From: Parcubacteria group bacterium
GTDB taxonomy: Bacteria > Patescibacteriota > Minisyncoccia > Phycocordibacterales > CALRBT01
NCBI GenBank assembly: GCA_943354475.1
Contig: CALRBT010000004.1
Span: forward strand, 1-56,874
Direction of reading: 5' to 3'
DNA length: 56,874 nt
Numbering within the stretch: position 1 is the stretch's first letter; every line of letters begins with the position of its first letter. Under the pieces are notes generated by a model, which was given only the letters and a program-made list of their open reading frames with translations, made no database searches and had not been told where the DNA came from. Shown in pieces: positions 2,603-45,181 of the stretch. The position numbers were made by a program, and so were the translations under genes.

Positions 2603-3799
2603 ATGGCAGCAGAAGCATTTGACCGTTCAAAGCCACACCTCAATGTGGGAACAATCGGCCACGTTGACCACGGAAAGACTACTCTTACCGCGGCTATTCT
2701 CCATGTCCTCGACATGGCTGGCAACAAAGTAAAGATGCGCGGAGTTGGTGAAATCGACTCAGCGCCTGAAGAGAAGGCTCGCGGTATTACTATCGCCCTT
2801 TCTCACAACGAGTACGAGACAAAGGCTCGTCACTACGCGCACATCGACGCGCCAGGACACGCCGACTACATTAAGAACATGATTACTGGAGCTGCGCAGA
2901 TGGACGGTGCAATCCTCGTGGTTGCAGCAACTGACGGTGCGATGCCACAGACTCGTGAGCACATCCTTCTTGCAAAGCAGGTTGGGGTACCAAAGATTAT
3001 CGTTTTCCTTAACAAGGTTGATATGGTTCCTGATAAGGACATGATCGATCTCGTTGAAGAAGAAATCCGAGAGCTTCTTACAAAGAACGGCTTTGATGGA
3101 GCGAATGCTCCTGTTATCAAGGGCTCAGGTCTTAAGGCACTTGAGGCAAAGTCACTCGATGATGAGTATGCAAAGGGTGTACTTGCTCTCGCTGACGCAC
3201 TCGACAATTACTTCCCAGTACCAGAACGTGATCTCGACAAGCCATTTCTTATGCCAGTTGAAGACATCTTCACTATTGAAGGACGTGGAACCGTGGTTAC
3301 TGGACGCGTTGAGCGTGGACGAATCAAGGTTGGTGAGGAAGTTGAGATTGTTGGTATCAATACAACAGTTAAAACAACCGTTACTGGTATTGAAATGTTC
3401 AACAAACAGCTTACCGAAGGTCAGGCTGGAGACAACGCCGGAGTACTCCTCCGAGGTCTTAAGAAAGACGACATCACACGAGGTCAGGTTCTTGCAAAGC
3501 CAGGTTCAGTAACACCTCATACAGATTTCGAAGCTGAGGTATACGTACTTACCAAAGAAGAAGGAGGACGACACACACCATTCTTCTCAGGATATAAGCC
3601 ACAGTTCTACATTCGAACTACTGACGTTACTGGAGACGTAACCCTAAGCGAAGGTGTTGAAATGGTTATGCCAGGAGATACCGCAAAGTTTAAGGTAAAG
3701 CTTATGGCACCAGTTGCTCTCGAAGACAACACACGATTTGCTATCCGCGAGGGTGGGAAAACCGTGGGCGCCGGCGTTGTTACCAAAATCGTCGCCTAG
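2603..3799 (+). CDS. tuf: Elongation factor Tu
   Basis: [19 protein letters not shown] and NKVD motifs; GGAG Shine-Dalgarno upstream. Confidence 0.98.
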
Positions 3800-3977: not shown

Positions 3978-4358
3978 ATGGCAGTAGCAGTAAAAGAAAA
4001 AGCGCCAAAAAAAGCAGCAAAAGCTGTTTCTAAACCGAAGGATAAAGAGGCGGTATCCAAATTGCGCATCAGAGTTCGTGCCTATGAACACAAGATTCTT
4101 GACCAGTCGGTTAAGCAGATTATGGACACAGCACTTCGCTATGACGCAGAGGTAGTTGGTCCGATTCCGCTCCCTACGGAGATTAAGAAATATACCGTCA
4201 ATCGTTCAGCTTTCGTCTTCAAAAATGCGCGAGAACAATTTGAGATGAGAATACATAAACGAGTGATTGATATCTTGAACCCTAATGCCAAAGTGATTGA
4301 AGCGCTAACTAATCTTAGTCTTCCATCAGGTGTGAGTATTGAGGTGAAAATGGGATAA
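3978..4358 (+). CDS. rpsJ: 30S ribosomal protein S10 with Lys/Ala-rich N-terminal extension
   Basis: LRIRVRAYEH, GPIPLPT and HKRVIDI motifs. Confidence 0.97.
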   Translation: MAVAVKEKAPKKAAKAVSKPKDKEAVSKLRIRVRAYEHKILDQSVKQIMDTALRYDAEVVGPIPLPTEIKKYTVNRSAFVFKNAREQFEMRIHKRVIDILNPNAKVIEALTNLSLPSGVSIEVKMG

Positions 4359-4390
4359 GTTAGGGTATAGGGCGTAGACATTAGTAAAAT

Positions 4391-4440
4391 ACCCAACCAC
4401 AACAAAAGCCTCCGCAAGGAGGCTTTTGTTGTGGTTGGGT
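4391..4440. terminator. Long hairpin terminator after rpsJ
   Basis: Perfect 23-bp arms acccaaccacaacaaaagcctcc / ggaggcttttgttgtggttgggt with a GCAA loop. Confidence 0.75.
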
Positions 4441-4457
4441 GTCAGAATTGGGGGGTA

Positions 4458-4485
4458 TTGACACCTTTTTTATATTATGTAATAT
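4458..4485 (+). promoter_or_regulatory. Promoter for the structured RNA candidate
   Basis: TTGACA, 16-nt spacer, TAATAT; lies directly before the first stem at 4491. Confidence 0.6.
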
Positions 4486-4490
4486 ATCAA

Positions 4491-4912
4491 TCGGCGGGGG
4501 ACGAGGCACAACGGCATACTGGAAACAGACACCGAACGCCTCCCCGTCGAAACCTGGACCCGCGGTGGTCTAGGTAAACCCATTGGAGAGAATCCAATGT
4601 CTGCTTATGAAAGCACAGGGATCGAGGCCCTGTAAGCTTCCAGAGGCCAAACTCAAACAGAGGGGAAATCAAAATCCGAAGAGAGCGAAGTACGACCTTG
4701 CCAATCAGCATCTAGTTTTCGCTGATTGGCTGAGGCTGAATCTGTCAAATTTCCCATTATGGGAATGCCCTAACTCCGGACTCAAGGGCGTCTGCAACTA
4801 GTGCTAGCAGATACTTGAGCGCCGCGTGATCATGTGGCAATGGCAAAGTGGGGCGAGTTCGACGGAATGGATTAGTCCATCGGCGAACCGCCCCAAAGCC
4901 ATCAGTTCTTTT
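4491..4912 (+). ncRNA. Unclassified large structured non-coding RNA candidate
   Basis: About ten consecutive stems by eye, e.g. 4491-4499/4542-4550, 4552-4560/4567-4575, 4580-4586/4593-4599, 4700-4709/4721-4730 and a long 4840-4902 hairpin. It has a GAAA tetraloop, sits between a promoter and a T-tract, and contains no convincing ORF. Confidence 0.55.
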
Positions 4913-4947
4913 TAGATAAACACGCAGACTTCCATTGGAAGACCAAC

Positions 4948-4978
4948 CCGCACTCGTATTTTCGAGGGCGGTGTTTTT
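4948..4978 (+). terminator. Hairpin plus T-tract after the RNA candidate
   Basis: ccgcactcg / cgagggcgg stem followed by tgttttt. Confidence 0.5.
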
Positions 4979-4987
4979 GATTTTATA

Positions 4988-5016
4988 TTGACAAGGGTTG
5001 TTTTGCGGTGTAATAA
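4988..5016 (+). promoter_or_regulatory. Promoter for the 5044 ORF
   Basis: TTGACA, 17-nt spacer, TAATAA. Confidence 0.6.
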
Positions 5017-5043
5017 GATGATGGAAAACTATTGAGGTGTGTC

Positions 5044-5718
5044 ATGGAAAACGATTTTTACGAATCTGAAACCGCTGTTTGGGAAACAGTGACAAGGGAG
5101 CAGTTGTTGCACCACAAGAGATTATTCCACAAGCTATTTCCTCTCGGTCATCAGGAGAGCATAAGGAGTCTTATCCAAAATCTTCGGAACCCTTCGTTCC
5201 GTGGGTTACTTATGGCGGAAAATTGGGGGGCATACATAGGAGATATTCACCCCAGAGCATTTGATTTGTTGGCCAAGTACGGACAGGATTATCATCCGCA
5301 TGTGTGGAAACGACCACTTGATTCGTCGCTTGATAGAAAGTGCTATATAAACTCATGGGCTATGGTCGAGAATGACTATCGACACCGTAACCGTCATACC
5401 TCGAAAGTCGTTGAGCCCATAGTCTATGTAGAGGGGGTTGCTTTCGGTGTGCGAGTCTATCCGATGCTTCATGGGTGGAACGCCAGAAACCTAGCTTCTC
5501 GAAGAGCATATGACACCACTCACCATGCTGTGTGTCGGTGGACAAGATATCTTGGTATTCCATTTACCCGGGATGAGTATCGGAAAATACGTGGTTTTGG
5601 ATTTAGTAACCTCTTGGCCGTTGATAAGTTTCCTAGGTTTGAAACAAGGATTACTAGATTGCTTGCCAAGAGGTTTGGAGAGAGGAATATGCCTTTATGC
5701 AGGGTCACCGAAAGGTGA
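5044..5718 (+). CDS. Hypothetical protein with a transglutaminase/papain-like Cys-His-Asp motif set
   Basis: KCYINSW, YVEG, LHGW, YDTT and RYLGIPF motifs in the expected order; GAGGTG SD precedes the ATG at 5044 (the track starts at TTG 5032). Confidence 0.6.
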   Translation: MENDFYESETAVWETVTREQLLHHKRLFHKLFPLGHQESIRSLIQNLRNPSFRGLLMAENWGAYIGDIHPRAFDLLAKYGQDYHPHVWKRPLDSSLDRKCYINSWAMVENDYRHRNRHTSKVVEPIVYVEGVAFGVRVYPMLHGWNARNLASRRAYDTTHHAVCRWTRYLGIPFTRDEYRKIRGFGFSNLLAVDKFPRFETRITRLLAKRFGERNMPLCRVTER

Positions 5719-5725
5719 CCCTTTG
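5701..5725 (+). terminator. GAAA-loop hairpin overlapping the ORF stop
   Basis: agggtcacc-gaaa-ggtgaccct followed by a T-rich tract. Confidence 0.6.
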
Positions 5726-5738
5726 CCTTTGCCACGAT

Positions 5739-5766
5739 TTGCATCTTTTTTATACTCGTGTATACT
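5739..5766 (+). promoter_or_regulatory. Promoter restarting the S10 cluster at rplC
   Basis: TTGCAT, 16-nt spacer, TATACT. Confidence 0.5.
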
Positions 5767-5888
5767 CTCTCCTAACTCGCACACTCGAGTCGTCTACGTT
5801 CCAGCAAGTGGAACCAATGGAAAATTCAATCCGCATGGACTGTTTCTTCCTTTAGCGGTTTTTTTGTTGGAAAAGTACACGTCGTGTC

Positions 5889-6014
5889 TAGAATTTGTGG
5901 ATTTGGATGCAATTCTAGGCGCAAGCGAGGCTTGTGACTAAAATGTAGGTGAATCTACATTACAGGAACAAATGAGCGAAGCAACAACGAAGTGCCTCAA
6001 ATCCACAAATTCTA
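5889..6014 (+). repeat. Palindromic repeat family, copy B
   Basis: Perfect 17-bp outer arms tagaatttgtggatttg / caaatccacaaattcta; core nearly identical to the reverse complements of copies D and E. Confidence 0.85.
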
Positions 6015-6015
6015 C

Positions 6016-6627
6016 ATGAAATTCATACTAGGAACAAAATTAAACATGACCCAGATCTTTGATGAAAAAGGTCTTGTTCACCCTGTTACCATTCTCGAAG
6101 CAAAACCATCAGTCATTACCCAGGTTAAGACTGAGAATACTGATGGGTATACTGCTGTTCAGGTTGGCTACGGCGCTGGTAAAGACAAGAACGTCAATAA
6201 AGCACAAAAAGGTCACATGAAAGAGACTGGCATCTTCCGAACACTTAAGGAGTTCCGACTTGATGGAGATGATATGGCACACAATAAAGGAGATTTAATC
6301 GACCTTTCAAAATTTGCCGTTGGGGACACAGTAACCATTTCTGCTATTTCAAAAGCCAAAGGTTTCCAGGGCGTTATCAAGCGCCATGGATTCAAAGGGG
6401 GTCCTCGTTCTCACGGCCAGAAGCATTCAGAGCACGCCCCGGGATCAATCGGTGCGGTATGGCCACAACGCGTCCTTAAGGGAAAGCGCATGGGTGGACG
6501 CATGGGTGGAGATCGAATTACGGTCAAGAACCTTAAGGTTGCGGCAATTGACCTTGAAAATCACAAAATAATGATTCAAGGCGCTATTCCGGGACGACGA
6601 GGTACACTTGTCGAAGTGCGCGGCTAA
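6016..6627 (+). CDS. rplC: 50S ribosomal protein L3
   Basis: MKFILGTKLNMTQIF and KGFQGVIKRHGF motifs; true start ATG 6016 (the track extends into the repeat). Confidence 0.97.
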   Translation: MKFILGTKLNMTQIFDEKGLVHPVTILEAKPSVITQVKTENTDGYTAVQVGYGAGKDKNVNKAQKGHMKETGIFRTLKEFRLDGDDMAHNKGDLIDLSKFAVGDTVTISAISKAKGFQGVIKRHGFKGGPRSHGQKHSEHAPGSIGAVWPQRVLKGKRMGGRMGGDRITVKNLKVAAIDLENHKIMIQGAIPGRRGTLVEVRG

Positions 6628-43114: not shown

Positions 43115-44741
43115 TCCGCCACAGTCACTTCAAGAGCTGAAAAGCTCGGGCGTTACGATTTACGGCCTTATTTATTGCAGAGTTTCGTCCGATAGACAGG
43201 CCACCGAGGGTCACGGCTTGGAAAGTCAGGAGCAACGTTGCCGTGAATACGCAAAACTAAACGGGTTCATCGTTGATAAAGTTTTTGCCGATAGCGCCTC
43301 AGGGGGTGGAGAATACACTTCACGAAAAAAACAGGTGGCACTACTTGAGTATGTAAAAGCGCACCCCAACAAAGTTTTCGTGGTCATAATTGACGATATT
43401 TCTCGTTTTGCGAGAGATGTGCAAGGTCACACACAGTTCAAGCTGCTTCTAAGGGAGCAGGGCGTAGAACTTACTTCTCCAAATTTTAATTTTGAAAATA
43501 GTCCCGAGGGGCAACTGATTGAAACCGTGATGGCTTCGGTAAGCCAGTATCATCGTACAGGAAATGCTCGCCAAGTTATCCAAAAACAGCTTGCTCGCAT
43601 GAACCTTGGCTGTTGGCCGTTTGCCTCAGTGCGCCCATTTAAAATGATGAAAGATGCAAACTATGGAAAAATTCTTACAGCGCAGTATCCCGACGTTGAA
43701 TATGCTAAAGAAGCCTTGGAGCGGTTCGCTAATGGCGAATTTCTTACGAAGGCTGATGCGTGCAGATTTCTCGCGGGAAAAGGCTATTGGAGGGACAACA
43801 GGCGCCCTGAAAAACATATTGATGCATTTACCTACTTGGCTAAGAGTATTCTAAACGCAGGGTGGGTAGAGTATACAAAGTGGGGTTTCAAGCCAATTGA
43901 GGGAAAGCACAAGGGCTTTATCTCTATGGAAACTTACGAAAAGGTTCAGAAGCGCCTAAAACGTGAGGGGTTAAGTAATCGTATACGTAAAGATATTCAC
44001 CCTGATTTCTTCGCTCGCGGTCTAGTTCTGTGCGATGGTTGCTCGTACCCATTCAGGGGAGCGTACTCAAGGGGTAGGACAAAACGCTATCCGTACTATG
44101 TCTGCCAAACACACGGGTGCCAATTTTATGGAAAATCAATTCGTAAAGATATTCTTGAAGGCCAATTCAAACAGCTACTTTCTGAAACCGCGTTGAAGGA
44201 AGATGTCGGCGACCTCGTTAGTATAATGTTTGACCGCGTTTGGAAAGATGAGGTTATCAATGTGAAAACTAATGAAGCCATTGTTGCTTCGCACAAATCA
44301 TCGCTTGAACATAAGCTAGAACAGCTTACAGAGGCCGTGTTTGGTGCAAAATCGCCTGCACTGAAAAAGATATATGAAAGCCAAATGGAAAGACTTGCAA
44401 AGGAGCTTGATAGCCCCGACCTTGCAAGCGTCGGGGAAATAGACTTCTCTGTACCTTATAGAACCGCTCTAGATAAAGCCAAGGGATTGCTAAAAAGCCC
44501 TTTAGAATATTGGGAAAAACTAGATGTACGTGAACAACATCGTCTTTTTTACTTCATCTTTGATGAGAAATTACCCTACACACCGAACGTTGGGTATAGA
44601 ACCGACAAAATACGAACAGCCATAAGGCTTTTTGAGAGCTTTGTGGCTGTAAGTTCTACTGATGTGGAGATGGGCGGAGTCGAACCGCCGTGCGGGAAAG
44701 TAGCTAGAATGCATCTACCGTGTGTAGCAGATTTGATTTAG
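43083..44741 (+). CDS. Large serine recombinase (integrase)
   Basis: Catalytic YCRVSS and DDISRFAR motifs; recombinase domain; zinc ribbon CDGC...YYVC...GC; coiled coil. Start is ATG 43083 or 43101. The last 24 codons are read from antisense tmRNA. Confidence 0.9.
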   Translation: MSKSSKMKQHSPPQSLQELKSSGVTIYGLIYCRVSSDRQATEGHGLESQEQRCREYAKLNGFIVDKVFADSASGGGEYTSRKKQVALLEYVKAHPNKVFVVIIDDISRFARDVQGHTQFKLLLREQGVELTSPNFNFENSPEGQLIETVMASVSQYHRTGNARQVIQKQLARMNLGCWPFASVRPFKMMKDANYGKILTAQYPDVEYAKEALERFANGEFLTKADACRFLAGKGYWRDNRRPEKHIDAFTYLAKSILNAGWVEYTKWGFKPIEGKHKGFISMETYEKVQKRLKREGLSNRIRKDIHPDFFARGLVLCDGCSYPFRGAYSRGRTKRYPYYVCQTHGCQFYGKSIRKDILEGQFKQLLSETALKEDVGDLVSIMFDRVWKDEVINVKTNEAIVASHKSSLEHKLEQLTEAVFGAKSPALKKIYESQMERLAKELDSPDLASVGEIDFSVPYRTALDKAKGLLKSPLEYWEKLDVREQHRLFYFIFDEKLPYTPNVGYRTDKIRTAIRLFESFVAVSSTDVEMGGVEPPCGKVARMHLPCVADLI

Positions 44742-45181
44742 GACTTGCGAATTTGACACATTTCGTCGTTGCTTCGCTCATTTGCTCCCGCAGAGTAGAT
44801 TCACCTACACTTTGGTCACAAGCCTCACTCGCGCCTAGAACTGTATCCAAATTCGCAAGTCCTGTTTAGAAATATTACGTAGAGAATATGCAAAACCGTA
44901 ATATGTCGATTCTCTTTATTTTGAATTACTCGCGAGAAACTGAGTAATTCTAGTTCCATTTTATTACACCCGATTCAACCTATGAAACTTCAGTTGATCG
45001 AACGCCACTTAGGCTAAAGCGTAAGTGGAAGCAAAGGTATTTCCCGTAAAGTACGGAGAAGCTACCGATTTTGCTTTTGAAAGTACGTTTGCACGTAGCT
45101 TGTTAAGCGTTTTTTAGGAAGGACGCTCACTTCCACACGGCACATAAAAGACTAATTTTCCTGTCGATGCCTGGCATCCCC
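44665..45181 (-). ncRNA. ssrA: tmRNA (about 517 nt, containing a palindromic insertion)
   Basis: 5' GGGGAUG pairs with 3' CAUCUCC-A giving G3:U70; T-arm GGCGG-UUCGACU-CCGCC; pk1 ggaag/cttcc and agcgt/acgct; tag ORF 45092-45009 = ANVLSKAKSVASPYFTGNTFASTYALA; next to smpB. Confidence 0.92.
44740..44863 (-). repeat. Palindromic repeat family, copy D (inside tmRNA)
   Basis: Perfect 16-bp arms aggacttgcgaatttg / caaattcgcaagtcct; core shared with copies B and E. Confidence 0.85.

What the first reader, a model, noticed from the sequence alone, without database searches (positions are those of the whole stretch)
4458..4980. Unclassified structured RNA of about 420 nt with its own promoter and terminator inside the S10 cluster
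Seen: after the rpsJ terminator comes TTGACA-16-TAATAT, then a GC-richer region tiled almost end to end with stems. These are 4491-4499/4542-4550 enclosing ctg-GAAA-cag, 4552-4575, 4580-4599, 4602-4615, 4615-4633, 4700-4730 and 4751-4765, competing pairings gccct/agggc versus ctcaag/cttgag around 4767-4819, and a 4840-4902 rod ending in a T-tract. By eye it lacks the signature sequences of RNase P, SRP, tmRNA, group I/II introns and common riboswitches. The next gene has its own promoter, so the RNA appears to be a stand-alone transcript. Inference: a candidate new large ncRNA class, possibly ribosome-linked given its location or paired with the adjacent Cys-His-Asp protein.
Basis: partly seen in the sequence, partly recalled or inferred. 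Interest (0 to 1): 0.8.

Follow-up and report, generated by a model that had tools for sequence, protein, structure and literature searches.

The report
Orphan hairpin-rich non-coding RNA candidate
A roughly 490-base non-coding stretch between two ribosomal-protein genes of a tiny uncultured bacterium folds far better than chance and looks like its own RNA gene, but it occurs in this one species only, so a new RNA class can be neither confirmed nor excluded.

Summary
It folds with z = -6.3, as extreme as this genome's RNase P RNA. A promoter-like site lies upstream and a terminator-like hairpin with a U-tract lies at 4945-4978. Rfam 15 gives no match even at E <= 10, and RNase P RNA and tmRNA lie elsewhere.

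The interpretation as a new large ncRNA class is not supported by comparative evidence, because no second copy was found anywhere:
- BLAST of 60 relatives found nothing; the same search with RNase P RNA hit 53 of 61 genomes.
- Three covariance models covering 369 of the 495 nt found nothing in 400 genomes of the order, and one found nothing in 400 of the phylum.
- About 170 related loci, phage and plasmid collections and the organism's own genome also gave nothing.

The RNA does not travel with the adjacent 224-aa ORF: none of 12 readable homologue loci has it. It lies in the gap between the rpsJ terminator and rplC's own promoter and leader. That gap collects unrelated, hairpin-rich inserts across this order.

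Best reading (0.4): a species-restricted stand-alone structured transcript. Main rival (0.3): functionless hairpin-rich filler.

The parts
4391..4440 (.). Perfect 23-bp palindromic hairpin after rpsJ; a bidirectional terminator-like element that forms the upstream boundary of the gap
   Evidence: I2: 100% complementary arms
4458..4485 (+). Sigma-70-like promoter TTGACA-16-TAATAT (10 of 12 match); inferred start near 4492
   Evidence: Weak evidence on its own: such sites are no commoner in this genome than in a shuffled one (228 against 278)
4486..4980 (+). Candidate structured non-coding RNA, about 490 nt; about 420 nt if it ends at the T-tract 4906-4913
   Evidence: z = -6.26; no Rfam match; all frames non-coding by codon usage, with 4-7 stops each; G+C 0.52 against genome 0.42
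4491..4550 (+). 5' domain: long interrupted hairpin capped by a GAAA tetraloop (CUG-GAAA-CAG)
   Evidence: -27.5 kcal/mol, z = -4.5
4552..4575 (+). 9-bp hairpin with one G-U pair
   Evidence: z = -3.2
4581..4599 (+). 7-bp hairpin with loop GAGAA. GGAGAG in the loop and stem lies 6 nt before an AUG that opens a 12-codon mini-ORF
   Evidence: z = -4.3; sequence
4640..4695 (+). A/purine-rich, largely unpaired linker (CCAGAGGCCAAACUCAAACAGAGGGGAAAUCAAAAUCCGAAGAGAGCGAAGUACGA)
   Evidence: AT skew +0.38
4696..4735 (+). 14-bp hairpin, including 10 perfect pairs at 4700-4709/4721-4730
   Evidence: z = -4.4
4781..4838 (+). Two hairpins, 4781-4819 and 4821-4838. The first competes with the pairing 4767-4771/4785-4789
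   Evidence: z = -0.3 and -2.4
4840..4902 (+). 63-nt rod, the most significant single element, followed by TTCTTTTT
   Evidence: -35.2 kcal/mol, z = -6.35
4945..4978 (+). Terminator-like hairpin (CCGC-A-CUCG / CGAG-G-GCGG) followed by UGUUUUUGAUUUU
   Evidence: z = -3.1; missed by the scanner because of the internal mismatch
4988..5016 (+). Weaker promoter-like site TTGACA-17-TAATAA in front of the ORF
   Evidence: read from the sequence; not reported because the last base of the -10 hexamer is A
5044..5718 (+). 224-aa ORF of an uncharacterised Patescibacteria-only family. It is a neighbour of the RNA, not a conserved partner
   Evidence: codon usage atypical for this genome; structure model pLDDT 58 with no PDB fold match
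5701..5722 (+). Terminator-like hairpin that overlaps the last codons and the stop of the ORF
5729..5880 (+). rplC operon's own promoter-like site (TTGCCA-16-TATACT) and a degenerate copy of a leader element conserved upstream of rplC in some relatives; the downstream boundary of the gap
5889..6014 (.). Copy of a multi-copy palindromic element just before rplC

Best explanation
Window 4486-4980 is most likely a species-restricted, independently transcribed, highly structured non-coding RNA of about 490 nt.

Inferred transcript:
- A sigma-70-like promoter at 4458-4485 would start transcription near 4492.
- The RNA would fold into a 5' domain of three hairpins, one capped by a GAAA tetraloop.
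- An A-rich unpaired linker follows, then a central set of hairpins and a 63-nt rod.
- It would end at the hairpin 4945-4975 plus U-tract.

Setting: it lies with an unrelated 224-aa ORF in the gap between the rpsJ terminator and the rplC operon's own promoter and leader. In this order that gap is a transcriptional boundary, so inserts there cause no polar effect, and it repeatedly collects foreign or hairpin-rich DNA.

Proposed action: a trans-acting stable RNA, probably a protein-binding scaffold or decoy.

Shown: it is non-coding, it folds above chance, it belongs to no known family, it is unique, and it is independent of the ORF family. It is also not a housekeeping or ribosomal RNA.

Inferred only: that it is transcribed, its strand and ends, and any function.
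For: - Fold z = -6.26. By my shuffles it is -8.0, against a genome background of mean -1.0, sd 1.7 and minimum -6.4 in 56 windows, and -8.2 for the RNase P window.
- Seven of ten hairpin segments are individually significant.
- G+C is 0.52 in a 0.42 genome. The gap ranks 10th of 144 ORF-free gaps by G+C and is among the longest, which is where structured RNAs fall.
- Every frame has 4-7 stops. The 48-74-aa ORFs score -0.17 to -0.26 bits per codon, against 0.29 +/- 0.11 for native genes, and have no Pfam match.
- The only two 10-of-12 promoter matches on the + strand between 3500 and 6500 lie exactly behind terminators, at 4458 and 5729.
- A terminator-like hairpin with a U-tract lies at 4945-4978.
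- Unpaired segments are A-rich on the + strand, and one loop is a GNRA tetraloop.
- The stretch is kept in a 786-kb genome that is about 85% coding.
- It is identical in four independent assemblies of the species.
Against: - There is a single sequence, so there is no covariation.
- No homologue was found in 60 relatives by BLAST. The same search with RNase P RNA hit 53 of 61 genomes, that is 52 of those 60 relatives.
- None was found with models R1, R2 and R3 in 400 genomes of the order, or with R2 in 400 genomes of the phylum.
- None was found in 80 rpsJ loci or in 34 metagenome and ORF loci, nor in phages, plasmids or the organism's own genome.
- Both strands fold equally well and G-U pairs do not favour a strand: 9 against 15. 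This is what DNA palindromes give.
- Most of this genome's strongest-folding windows are long palindromes or repeated palindromic elements.
- Twelve of 13 enlarged rpsJ-rplC spacers in relatives also fold with z <= -4.3 although unrelated in sequence.
- Sigma-70-like sites are not enriched genome-wide.
- There are no expression data.
Confidence: 0.4

Rival explanations
1. Functionless or selfish filler. The stretch is hairpin-rich DNA left by one or more insertions, such as decayed palindromic elements or the non-coding part of a cassette that brought the ORF. It sits in a neutral gap between a terminator and a promoter. Any transcript is incidental.
For: - It is unique to one species and has no homologue.
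- The gap is 6-100 nt in most relatives, but 300-3000 nt and filled with unrelated sequence in about 20 of 70.
- Those enlarged spacers are almost all strongly folding.
- The genome is rich in palindromes and palindromic repeats.
- Both strands fold alike.
- The neighbouring ORF has atypical codon usage, which suggests recent arrival.
Against: - No part of the region is repeated elsewhere in the genome, unlike the known palindromic elements.
- It has ten different hairpins rather than one long palindrome.
- Its G+C is well above that of other intergenic DNA.
- Promoter-like and terminator-like signals frame it in the right order.
- A 786-kb streamlined genome would be expected to delete junk.
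Confidence: 0.3
2. A long cis-acting 5' leader or attenuator of the 224-aa ORF. Transcription from 4458-4485 runs through the structured region, and the hairpin 4945-4975 with its U-tract decides whether it continues into the ORF at 5044.
For: - The order promoter, structured RNA, terminator, ORF is the classic attenuator layout.
- The ORF's own promoter is the weaker one: TTGACA-17-TAATAA, not called by the scanner.
- Mutually exclusive pairings exist around 4767-4819.
Against: - None of the 12 readable loci of the ORF family has a homologous upstream element or a structured non-coding one. L003 folds at z = -1.1 and L004 has only 80 nt upstream. Nine of ten further loci give z from -2.1 to +0.7; the tenth, L186 at -4.9, lies in a 653-aa ORF.
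- At 490 nt it is far longer than known riboswitches or attenuators.
- No riboswitch or T-box match appears even at E <= 10.
Confidence: 0.12
3. The functional form is on the minus strand or is the DNA itself, for example an antisense transcript that ends at the bidirectional hairpin 4440-4391, or a cluster of inverted-repeat protein-binding or recombination sites.
For: - The minus strand folds as well as the plus strand: -193.9 kcal/mol, z = -5.4.
- Most stems are perfect Watson-Crick palindromes.
- The hairpin 4391-4440 has a T-rich tail on the minus strand.
Against: - Only a weak 9-of-12 promoter-like site on the minus strand, at 5045-5018, lies beyond the region's 3' edge. The other, at 4785-4756, is internal.
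- On the minus strand the unpaired linker would be U-rich.
- No recombinase or transposase is adjacent.
- No terminal repeats bound the insert.
Confidence: 0.08
4. A protein-coding gene or a decayed pseudogene.
For: ORFs of 72 aa (4583-4801, +), 74 aa (4487-4711, -) and 48 aa (4431-4577, +) exist.
Against: - Their codon usage is that of non-coding frames.
- They have no Pfam match at E <= 10.
- tblastx finds no match in the organism's own genome.
- Gene callers placed no gene here in four assemblies.
Confidence: 0.03
5. A very divergent member of a known RNA family: RNase P, SRP, tmRNA, a group I or II intron, ROOL, GOLLD, OLE, raiA or HEARO.
For: Its size and hairpin density resemble those of large ncRNAs. 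No SRP RNA is detectable in this genome.
Against: - No Rfam family matches inside 4486-4980, even at E <= 10 with permissive filters.
- RNase P RNA and tmRNA are found elsewhere.
- The whole order lacks both SRP RNA and the SRP54-type GTPase, so no SRP RNA is expected.
- A housekeeping RNA would be conserved in relatives, and this one is not.
Confidence: 0.03

Closest known systems
Orphan large structured ncRNA candidates found as long, G+C-rich intergenic regions in AT-rich bacterial genomes (the IGR length versus G+C approach, e.g. PMC8632094, seen only as title and abstract)
   Same: - It is a long ORF-free gap with G+C well above the genome average.
- It is dense in hairpins.
- It has promoter-like and terminator-like signals of its own.
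- It has no known function.
   Different: Accepted candidates of that kind rest on several homologues with covariation. Here there is one sequence in one species and none elsewhere.
ROOL, GOLLD and OLE (large bacterial ncRNAs in Rfam)
   Same: It is several hundred nucleotides long, has many stems, is non-coding and is often next to mobile or accessory genes.
   Different: - There is no Rfam match at all.
- It is shorter than these RNAs, by my recollection of their sizes, which I did not check.
- It has no family.
- No tRNA or phage context is visible.
Palindromic repeat elements (MITE-, REP- or RPE-like), including the 125-bp element present five times in this window
   Same: - It is hairpin-forming intergenic DNA.
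- Both strands fold equally.
- It lies in the same gap as one such element (5889-6014).
   Different: It is single-copy, consists of ten different hairpins rather than one palindrome, and shares no sequence with those elements.
Ribosomal-protein operon leaders, such as the conserved element upstream of rplC seen here in relatives
   Same: It is a structured RNA inside the S10 gene cluster, preceded by a promoter.
   Different: - It is separated from rplC by an ORF, a terminator and rplC's own promoter and leader.
- It is not conserved in position or sequence.
Type III toxin-antitoxin loci (promoter, RNA, terminator, protein gene)
   Same: The order of the parts is the same: promoter, non-coding RNA, terminator, ORF.
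   Different: - No tandem repeats appear in the repeat scan.
- The ORF matches no defence or toxin model.
- The ORF family occurs without the RNA.

Membership tests
Any Rfam 15 family (including RNase P, SRP, tmRNA, group I/II introns, riboswitches, T-box, ROOL, GOLLD, OLE, raiA, HEARO) | Covariance-model score at or above the family's gathering threshold | tested here: not met
   No match in 4486-4980 at gathering thresholds or at E <= 10 with permissive filters. The 14 weak matches all lie on the rpsJ terminator hairpin and promoter stretch, 4351-4488.
Bacterial RNase P RNA | It is the genome's only RNase P RNA and is conserved across relatives | tested here: not met
   RF00010 matches G000:C2:46442-46800 at 106.8 bits. 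That RNA is found by BLAST in 53 of 61 genomes, the candidate in 1 of 61.
tmRNA | tRNA-like domain and tag reading frame | tested here: not met
   tmRNA lies at 44662-45181 on the minus strand, 86.4 bits.
SRP RNA | Conserved helix 8 (domain IV) motif, and an Ffh partner in the genome | tested here: not met
   - RF00169 and RF01854 give nothing in the genome, and no SRP match appears in the region at E <= 10.
- The SRP54-type GTPase domain PF00448 is absent from this genome and from 30 relatives, as are its sequence motifs.
New ncRNA class in the comparative-genomics sense | Several divergent homologues whose predicted pairs are kept by compensatory changes | tested here: not met
   Only identical copies from the same strain exist. 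No homologue was found.
New ncRNA class in the comparative-genomics sense | A discrete transcript with defined ends | not testable with these tools
RNA partner of the adjacent 224-aa protein family | Co-occurrence of RNA and protein gene across genomes | tested here: not met
   There are 13 homologues and DNA was readable for 12 (no DNA for P0004). R1 and R2 give no significant match in any readable locus. Upstream regions are short or fold at background level, or are coding as in L186.
Palindromic repeat element (MITE/REP-like) | Several copies in the genome | tested here: not met
   blastn-short against the whole genome gives only 13-17-nt chance matches.
Ribosomal-protein operon leader | Conserved position directly upstream of the regulated r-protein gene | tested here: not met
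   - The ORF, a terminator and rplC's own promoter and leader (5729-5880) lie between the region and rplC.
- There is no similarity to that leader above shuffles.
- It is absent from 80 rpsJ-rplC loci.
Type III toxin-antitoxin RNA | Tandem repeats of about 34-45 nt upstream of a terminator and a toxin gene | tested here: not met
   No direct-repeat family lies inside 4486-4980. The ORF has no PADLOC match.

The most novel reading that the evidence does not exclude
The region encodes a new, lineage-restricted large structured RNA: a multi-domain RNA of about 490 nt with its own promoter and terminator, acquired or invented in one family-level lineage of Paceibacteria, and acting in trans, for example as a protein scaffold or decoy. 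It would be the founding member of a class whose relatives are not yet in sequence databases.
Probability: 0.3. Interest if true: 0.55.

Novelty: new variant of a known kind. Interest (0 to 1): 0.3.

Why it matters
If the RNA is real, it would show that bacteria with extremely reduced genomes (Patescibacteria/CPR) still carry large, lineage-specific structured RNAs. It would also add a large ncRNA with no relatives to a short list. With one sequence, no expression data and no function, it cannot be acted on at present.

The wider result is more useful. In this order the rpsJ-rplC junction is a transcriptional boundary that tolerates and accumulates inserts. This explains why such oddities appear 'inside' the S10 cluster.

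Two side observations may matter more than the finding itself:
- a covarying RNA element upstream of rplC in some relatives;
- the apparent absence of the whole SRP pathway from this order.

Tried and rejected
- **Rfam.** The whole window at gathering thresholds and 4350-5100 at E <= 10 gave nothing in the region.
- **BLAST of the RNA.** It found nothing in 60 relatives, in phages, in plasmids or in the organism's own genome. nhmmer and blastn found nothing in 80 rpsJ loci.
- **Covariance models.** Three single-sequence models were built: R1 4488-4602, R2 4694-4840 and R3 4838-4944. All three were searched in 400 genomes of the order and R2 also in 400 of the phylum. R1 and R2 were searched in 34 metagenome and ORF loci, and with filters off in 10 further ORF loci. 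Only chance-level scores came back.
- **Close relatives.** A search through L3 in metagenome contigs gave at best 63% identity, so no near relative exists to compare.
- **Population variation.** Four other assemblies differ from the window by 1-4 bases over 5.4-11.7 kb and by none in the RNA, so this gives no information.
- **Coupling to the ORF.** Rejected.
- **ORF function.** There is no Pfam, PHROG, NCBIfam or PADLOC match. The AlphaFold model has pLDDT 58 and no PDB fold match.
- **Coding or pseudogene.** Rejected by codon usage, Pfam and tblastx.
- **Duplicate of the rplC promoter and leader.** An 18-nt promoter repeat (D2) and a GUCUAnGU...CCAAUG resemblance suggested this, but the local alignment score is not above shuffles, 27% of which reach it.
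- **Mobile-element ends.** No terminal inverted repeats or clear target duplication were found.
- **Strand assignment from G-U pairs or energies.** Inconclusive.
- **The missing SRP RNA.** Rejected, because the order lacks the SRP protein too.

Full report
**Setting.** The window comes from a 786-kb, 16-contig, 98%-complete genome. By the titles of the closest rpsJ loci it belongs to the Paceibacteria/Parcubacteria group of Patescibacteria (CPR). It is the only member of its family among the species representatives. Its closest L3 protein in metagenome contigs is 63% identical. The local gene order is as follows:
- fusA 39-2180, tuf 2603-3799, rpsJ 3978-4358;
- a perfect 23-bp hairpin at 4391-4440;
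- the candidate RNA;
- a 224-aa ORF at 5044-5718 with a terminator-like hairpin at 5701-5722;
- a promoter-like site at 5729-5756;
- a palindromic repeat at 5889-6014;
- rplC 6016-6627, followed by rplD, rplW and rplB.

**Checking the observation.** The exception is 4602-4615.
- The region 4486-4980 folds at -193.6 kcal/mol against -152.7 +/- 6.5 for 100 dinucleotide shuffles, z = -6.26.
- I calibrated this against the genome. Fifty-six random 495-nt windows give a mean z of -1.0, sd 1.7 and minimum -6.4. The candidate gives -8.0 by the same script and the RNase P window -8.2.
- Seven of ten hairpin segments are individually significant. The strongest is the 4840-4902 rod, z = -6.35.
- The region is non-coding. 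Every frame has 4-7 stops, and the 48-74-aa ORFs score -0.17 to -0.26 bits per codon against 0.29 +/- 0.11 for native genes. They have no Pfam match.
- G+C is 0.52 in a 0.42 genome. The gap ranks 10th of 144 ORF-free gaps by G+C.
- TTGACA-16-TAATAT lies at 4458-4485.
- The best terminator is the hairpin 4945-4975 followed by UGUUUUUGAUUUU. The unit is therefore nearer 490 nt than 420.

**Caveats on the structure signal.**
- The minus strand folds just as well, z = -5.4.
- G-U pairs do not choose a strand: 9 on the plus strand against 15 on the minus.
- After regression on G+C the region ranks 23rd of 901 windows.
- The most extreme 200-nt window here, 4401-4600, is one of only two local windows that contain the whole terminator hairpin 4391-4440. 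The 200-nt windows wholly inside the RNA region score only -0.45 to -1.95.
- Most of this genome's strongest-folding windows are long palindromes or repeated palindromic elements.
- Sigma-70-like sites with 10 of 12 matches are no commoner than in a shuffled genome, 228 against 278. The promoter is therefore weak evidence by itself. Even so, the only two such sites on the + strand between 3500 and 6500 lie exactly behind terminators.

**What it is not.**
- Rfam 15 gives no match in the region, even at E <= 10 with permissive filters.
- RNase P RNA lies on another contig and tmRNA at 44662-45181.
- No SRP RNA is detectable in the genome or in 40 relatives. The SRP54-type GTPase of Ffh and FtsY is missing from this genome and from 30 relatives, while all 14 control genomes have it. 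My motif scans agree. An SRP RNA is therefore not expected, and the candidate is not it.
- It is not a copy of any repeat in the genome.
- It shows no similarity above shuffles to the rplC promoter and leader region.

**Search for relatives.**
- BLAST in 60 relatives found only the genome itself. As a positive control, the same search with this genome's RNase P RNA hit 53 of 61 genomes. A conserved RNA would therefore have been seen.
- Three single-sequence covariance models cover 369 of the 495 nt. They gave only chance-level scores in 400 genomes of the order and, for R2, in 400 genomes of the phylum.
- R1 and R2 also gave nothing in 34 metagenome and ORF loci, or with filters off in 10 further ORF-family loci.
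- nhmmer and blastn found nothing in 80 rpsJ loci, and blastn found nothing in phage and plasmid collections.
- Four other assemblies of the same strain are identical over the RNA and differ from the window by 1-4 bases over 5.4-11.7 kb. They carry no population signal.
- Covariation, the usual proof of a structured RNA, therefore cannot be obtained, and 'class' is not justified.

**Relation to the ORF.** The 224-aa protein belongs to a small Patescibacteria-only family. Three homologues came from 5.8 billion proteins and ten more from species genomes. None came from viral contigs.
- DNA could be read for 12 of these 13 homologues. In none of those loci does the gene lie in the S10 cluster.
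- None has a structured non-coding region upstream. L003 has 530 nt folding at z = -1.1 and L004 has only 80 nt.
- Nine of the ten further loci fold at background level upstream. The tenth, L186 at z = -4.9, lies inside a 653-aa ORF.
- The RNA is therefore not a partner of this protein family.
- The ORF has atypical codon usage for this genome, -0.08 bits per codon, which suggests it arrived recently.
- Its function stays unknown. It matches no family model, its structure model has pLDDT 58, and it has no PDB fold match.

**Why here.** In 70 relatives where both genes were found, the estimated rpsJ-rplC spacer is under about 100 nt, or slightly negative by the estimate, in 42. It is 300-3000 nt in about 20, filled with unrelated ORFs or non-coding DNA. 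Twelve of 13 spacers of 226-706 nt fold with z <= -4.3.
- Several relatives carry, just before rplC, a promoter-like GTATACT followed by a conserved element. Its form is AGACCUAYGU, a variable hairpin, ACCAAUGGGCA, and a long hairpin with eight compensatory pairs.
- The window has a degenerate copy at about 5792-5880, behind the promoter-like site at 5729-5756.
- In these genomes, therefore, rpsJ ends in its own terminator and rplC starts a new transcription unit. An insert between the two has no polar effect.
- That explains the location without any link to the ribosome.

**Most likely mechanism.** I put 0.4 on a species-restricted, stand-alone structured RNA: promoter 4458-4485, start near 4492, three 5' hairpins including a GAAA tetraloop, an A-rich linker, central hairpins, a 63-nt rod, and the terminator 4945-4978. 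It would act in trans as a stable protein-binding RNA.
- Shown: it is non-coding, it folds above chance, it is unique, and it is independent of the ORF.
- Inferred: transcription, strand, ends and function.

Rivals:
- functionless hairpin-rich filler in a neutral gap, 0.3;
- a long leader or attenuator of the ORF, 0.12, weakened by its absence from the other family loci;
- a minus-strand or DNA-level role, 0.08;
- a coding remnant, 0.03;
- a divergent member of a known RNA family, 0.03.

**Novelty and verdict.** It matches no known family, but the general kind is familiar: a promoter-to-terminator structured RNA gene, or a hairpin-rich intergenic insert. With one sequence and no expression data the interest is modest, 0.3.

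Noticed in passing
L032:4286-4412, L033:3619-3722, L037:3994-4118, L044:4931-5040, L047:4743-4842, L050:6578-6695, L052:4398-4518, L073:5900-6020; window about 5792-5880: A conserved structured element of about 100-125 nt lies between a promoter-like GTATACT and rplC in 9 of 80 Paceibacteria rpsJ loci. Its form is AGACCUAYGU, a variable hairpin, ACCAAUGGGCA(C/G)AAA, and a long hairpin with eight compensatory pairs. Five of these loci were scanned against Rfam at gathering thresholds and gave no match. The exact motif occurs in only 1 of 191 sampled genomes of the order. It may be a new leader of the L3/L4 operon.
   Followed up: partly
whole genome G000 and 30-40 relatives of the same order: The SRP pathway appears to be absent. 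There is no SRP RNA by RF00169 or RF01854 in this genome, and none by RF00169 in 40 relatives. The SRP54-type GTPase domain (PF00448, found in Ffh and FtsY) is absent from this genome and 30 relatives, although all 14 control genomes have it. No GxxGxGKT plus DTAGR reading frame exists. Two full-text searches found no paper that reports this.
   Followed up: partly
rpsJ-rplC spacers of L010-L089: The estimated spacer is under about 100 nt, or slightly negative, in most relatives. It is 300-3000 nt in about 20 of 70, with unrelated ORFs (for example 192-210 aa in L032, L039 and L047) or non-coding DNA. Almost all enlarged spacers fold strongly, so this junction is an insertion hot spot.
   Followed up: partly
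window 5044-5718; L003, L004, L181-L190: The 224-aa ORF belongs to a small family seen only in Patescibacteria, with 13 homologues at 31-43% identity. The four sequences aligned share motifs such as FPxGH, YVEG, PMxHxW and RYxGIPFT. The ORF has no known domain, a low-confidence structure model and codon usage atypical for this genome.
   Followed up: partly
window 5021-5033 and 5044-5056: The first 13 bases of the ORF (ATGGAAAACGATT) are repeated 23 nt upstream as ATGGAAAACTATT, which opens only a 4-codon frame (D4).
   Followed up: no
window 4585-4635: A 12-codon mini-ORF (MSAYESTGIEAL) has GGAGAG 6 nt before its AUG. The AUG sits in the 3' arm of hairpin 4581-4599. This may be chance.
   Followed up: no
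window 4529-4548 and 5431-5450: A 20-nt stretch of the RNA's first hairpin is 80% complementary to a stretch inside the ORF (I4). It is within what chance could give.
   Followed up: no
genome G000, e.g. C9:2601-2900, C11:28701-29000, C5:51201-51700, C2:26301-26700: The strongest-folding 200-nt windows of the genome are mostly long perfect palindromes of 40-130 nt, many of them in several copies. The genome is heavily populated by palindromic elements and long bidirectional terminators.
   Followed up: partly
window 44662-45181 (-): The tmRNA gene spans 520 nt and carries a 125-nt insertion relative to the Rfam model.
   Followed up: no
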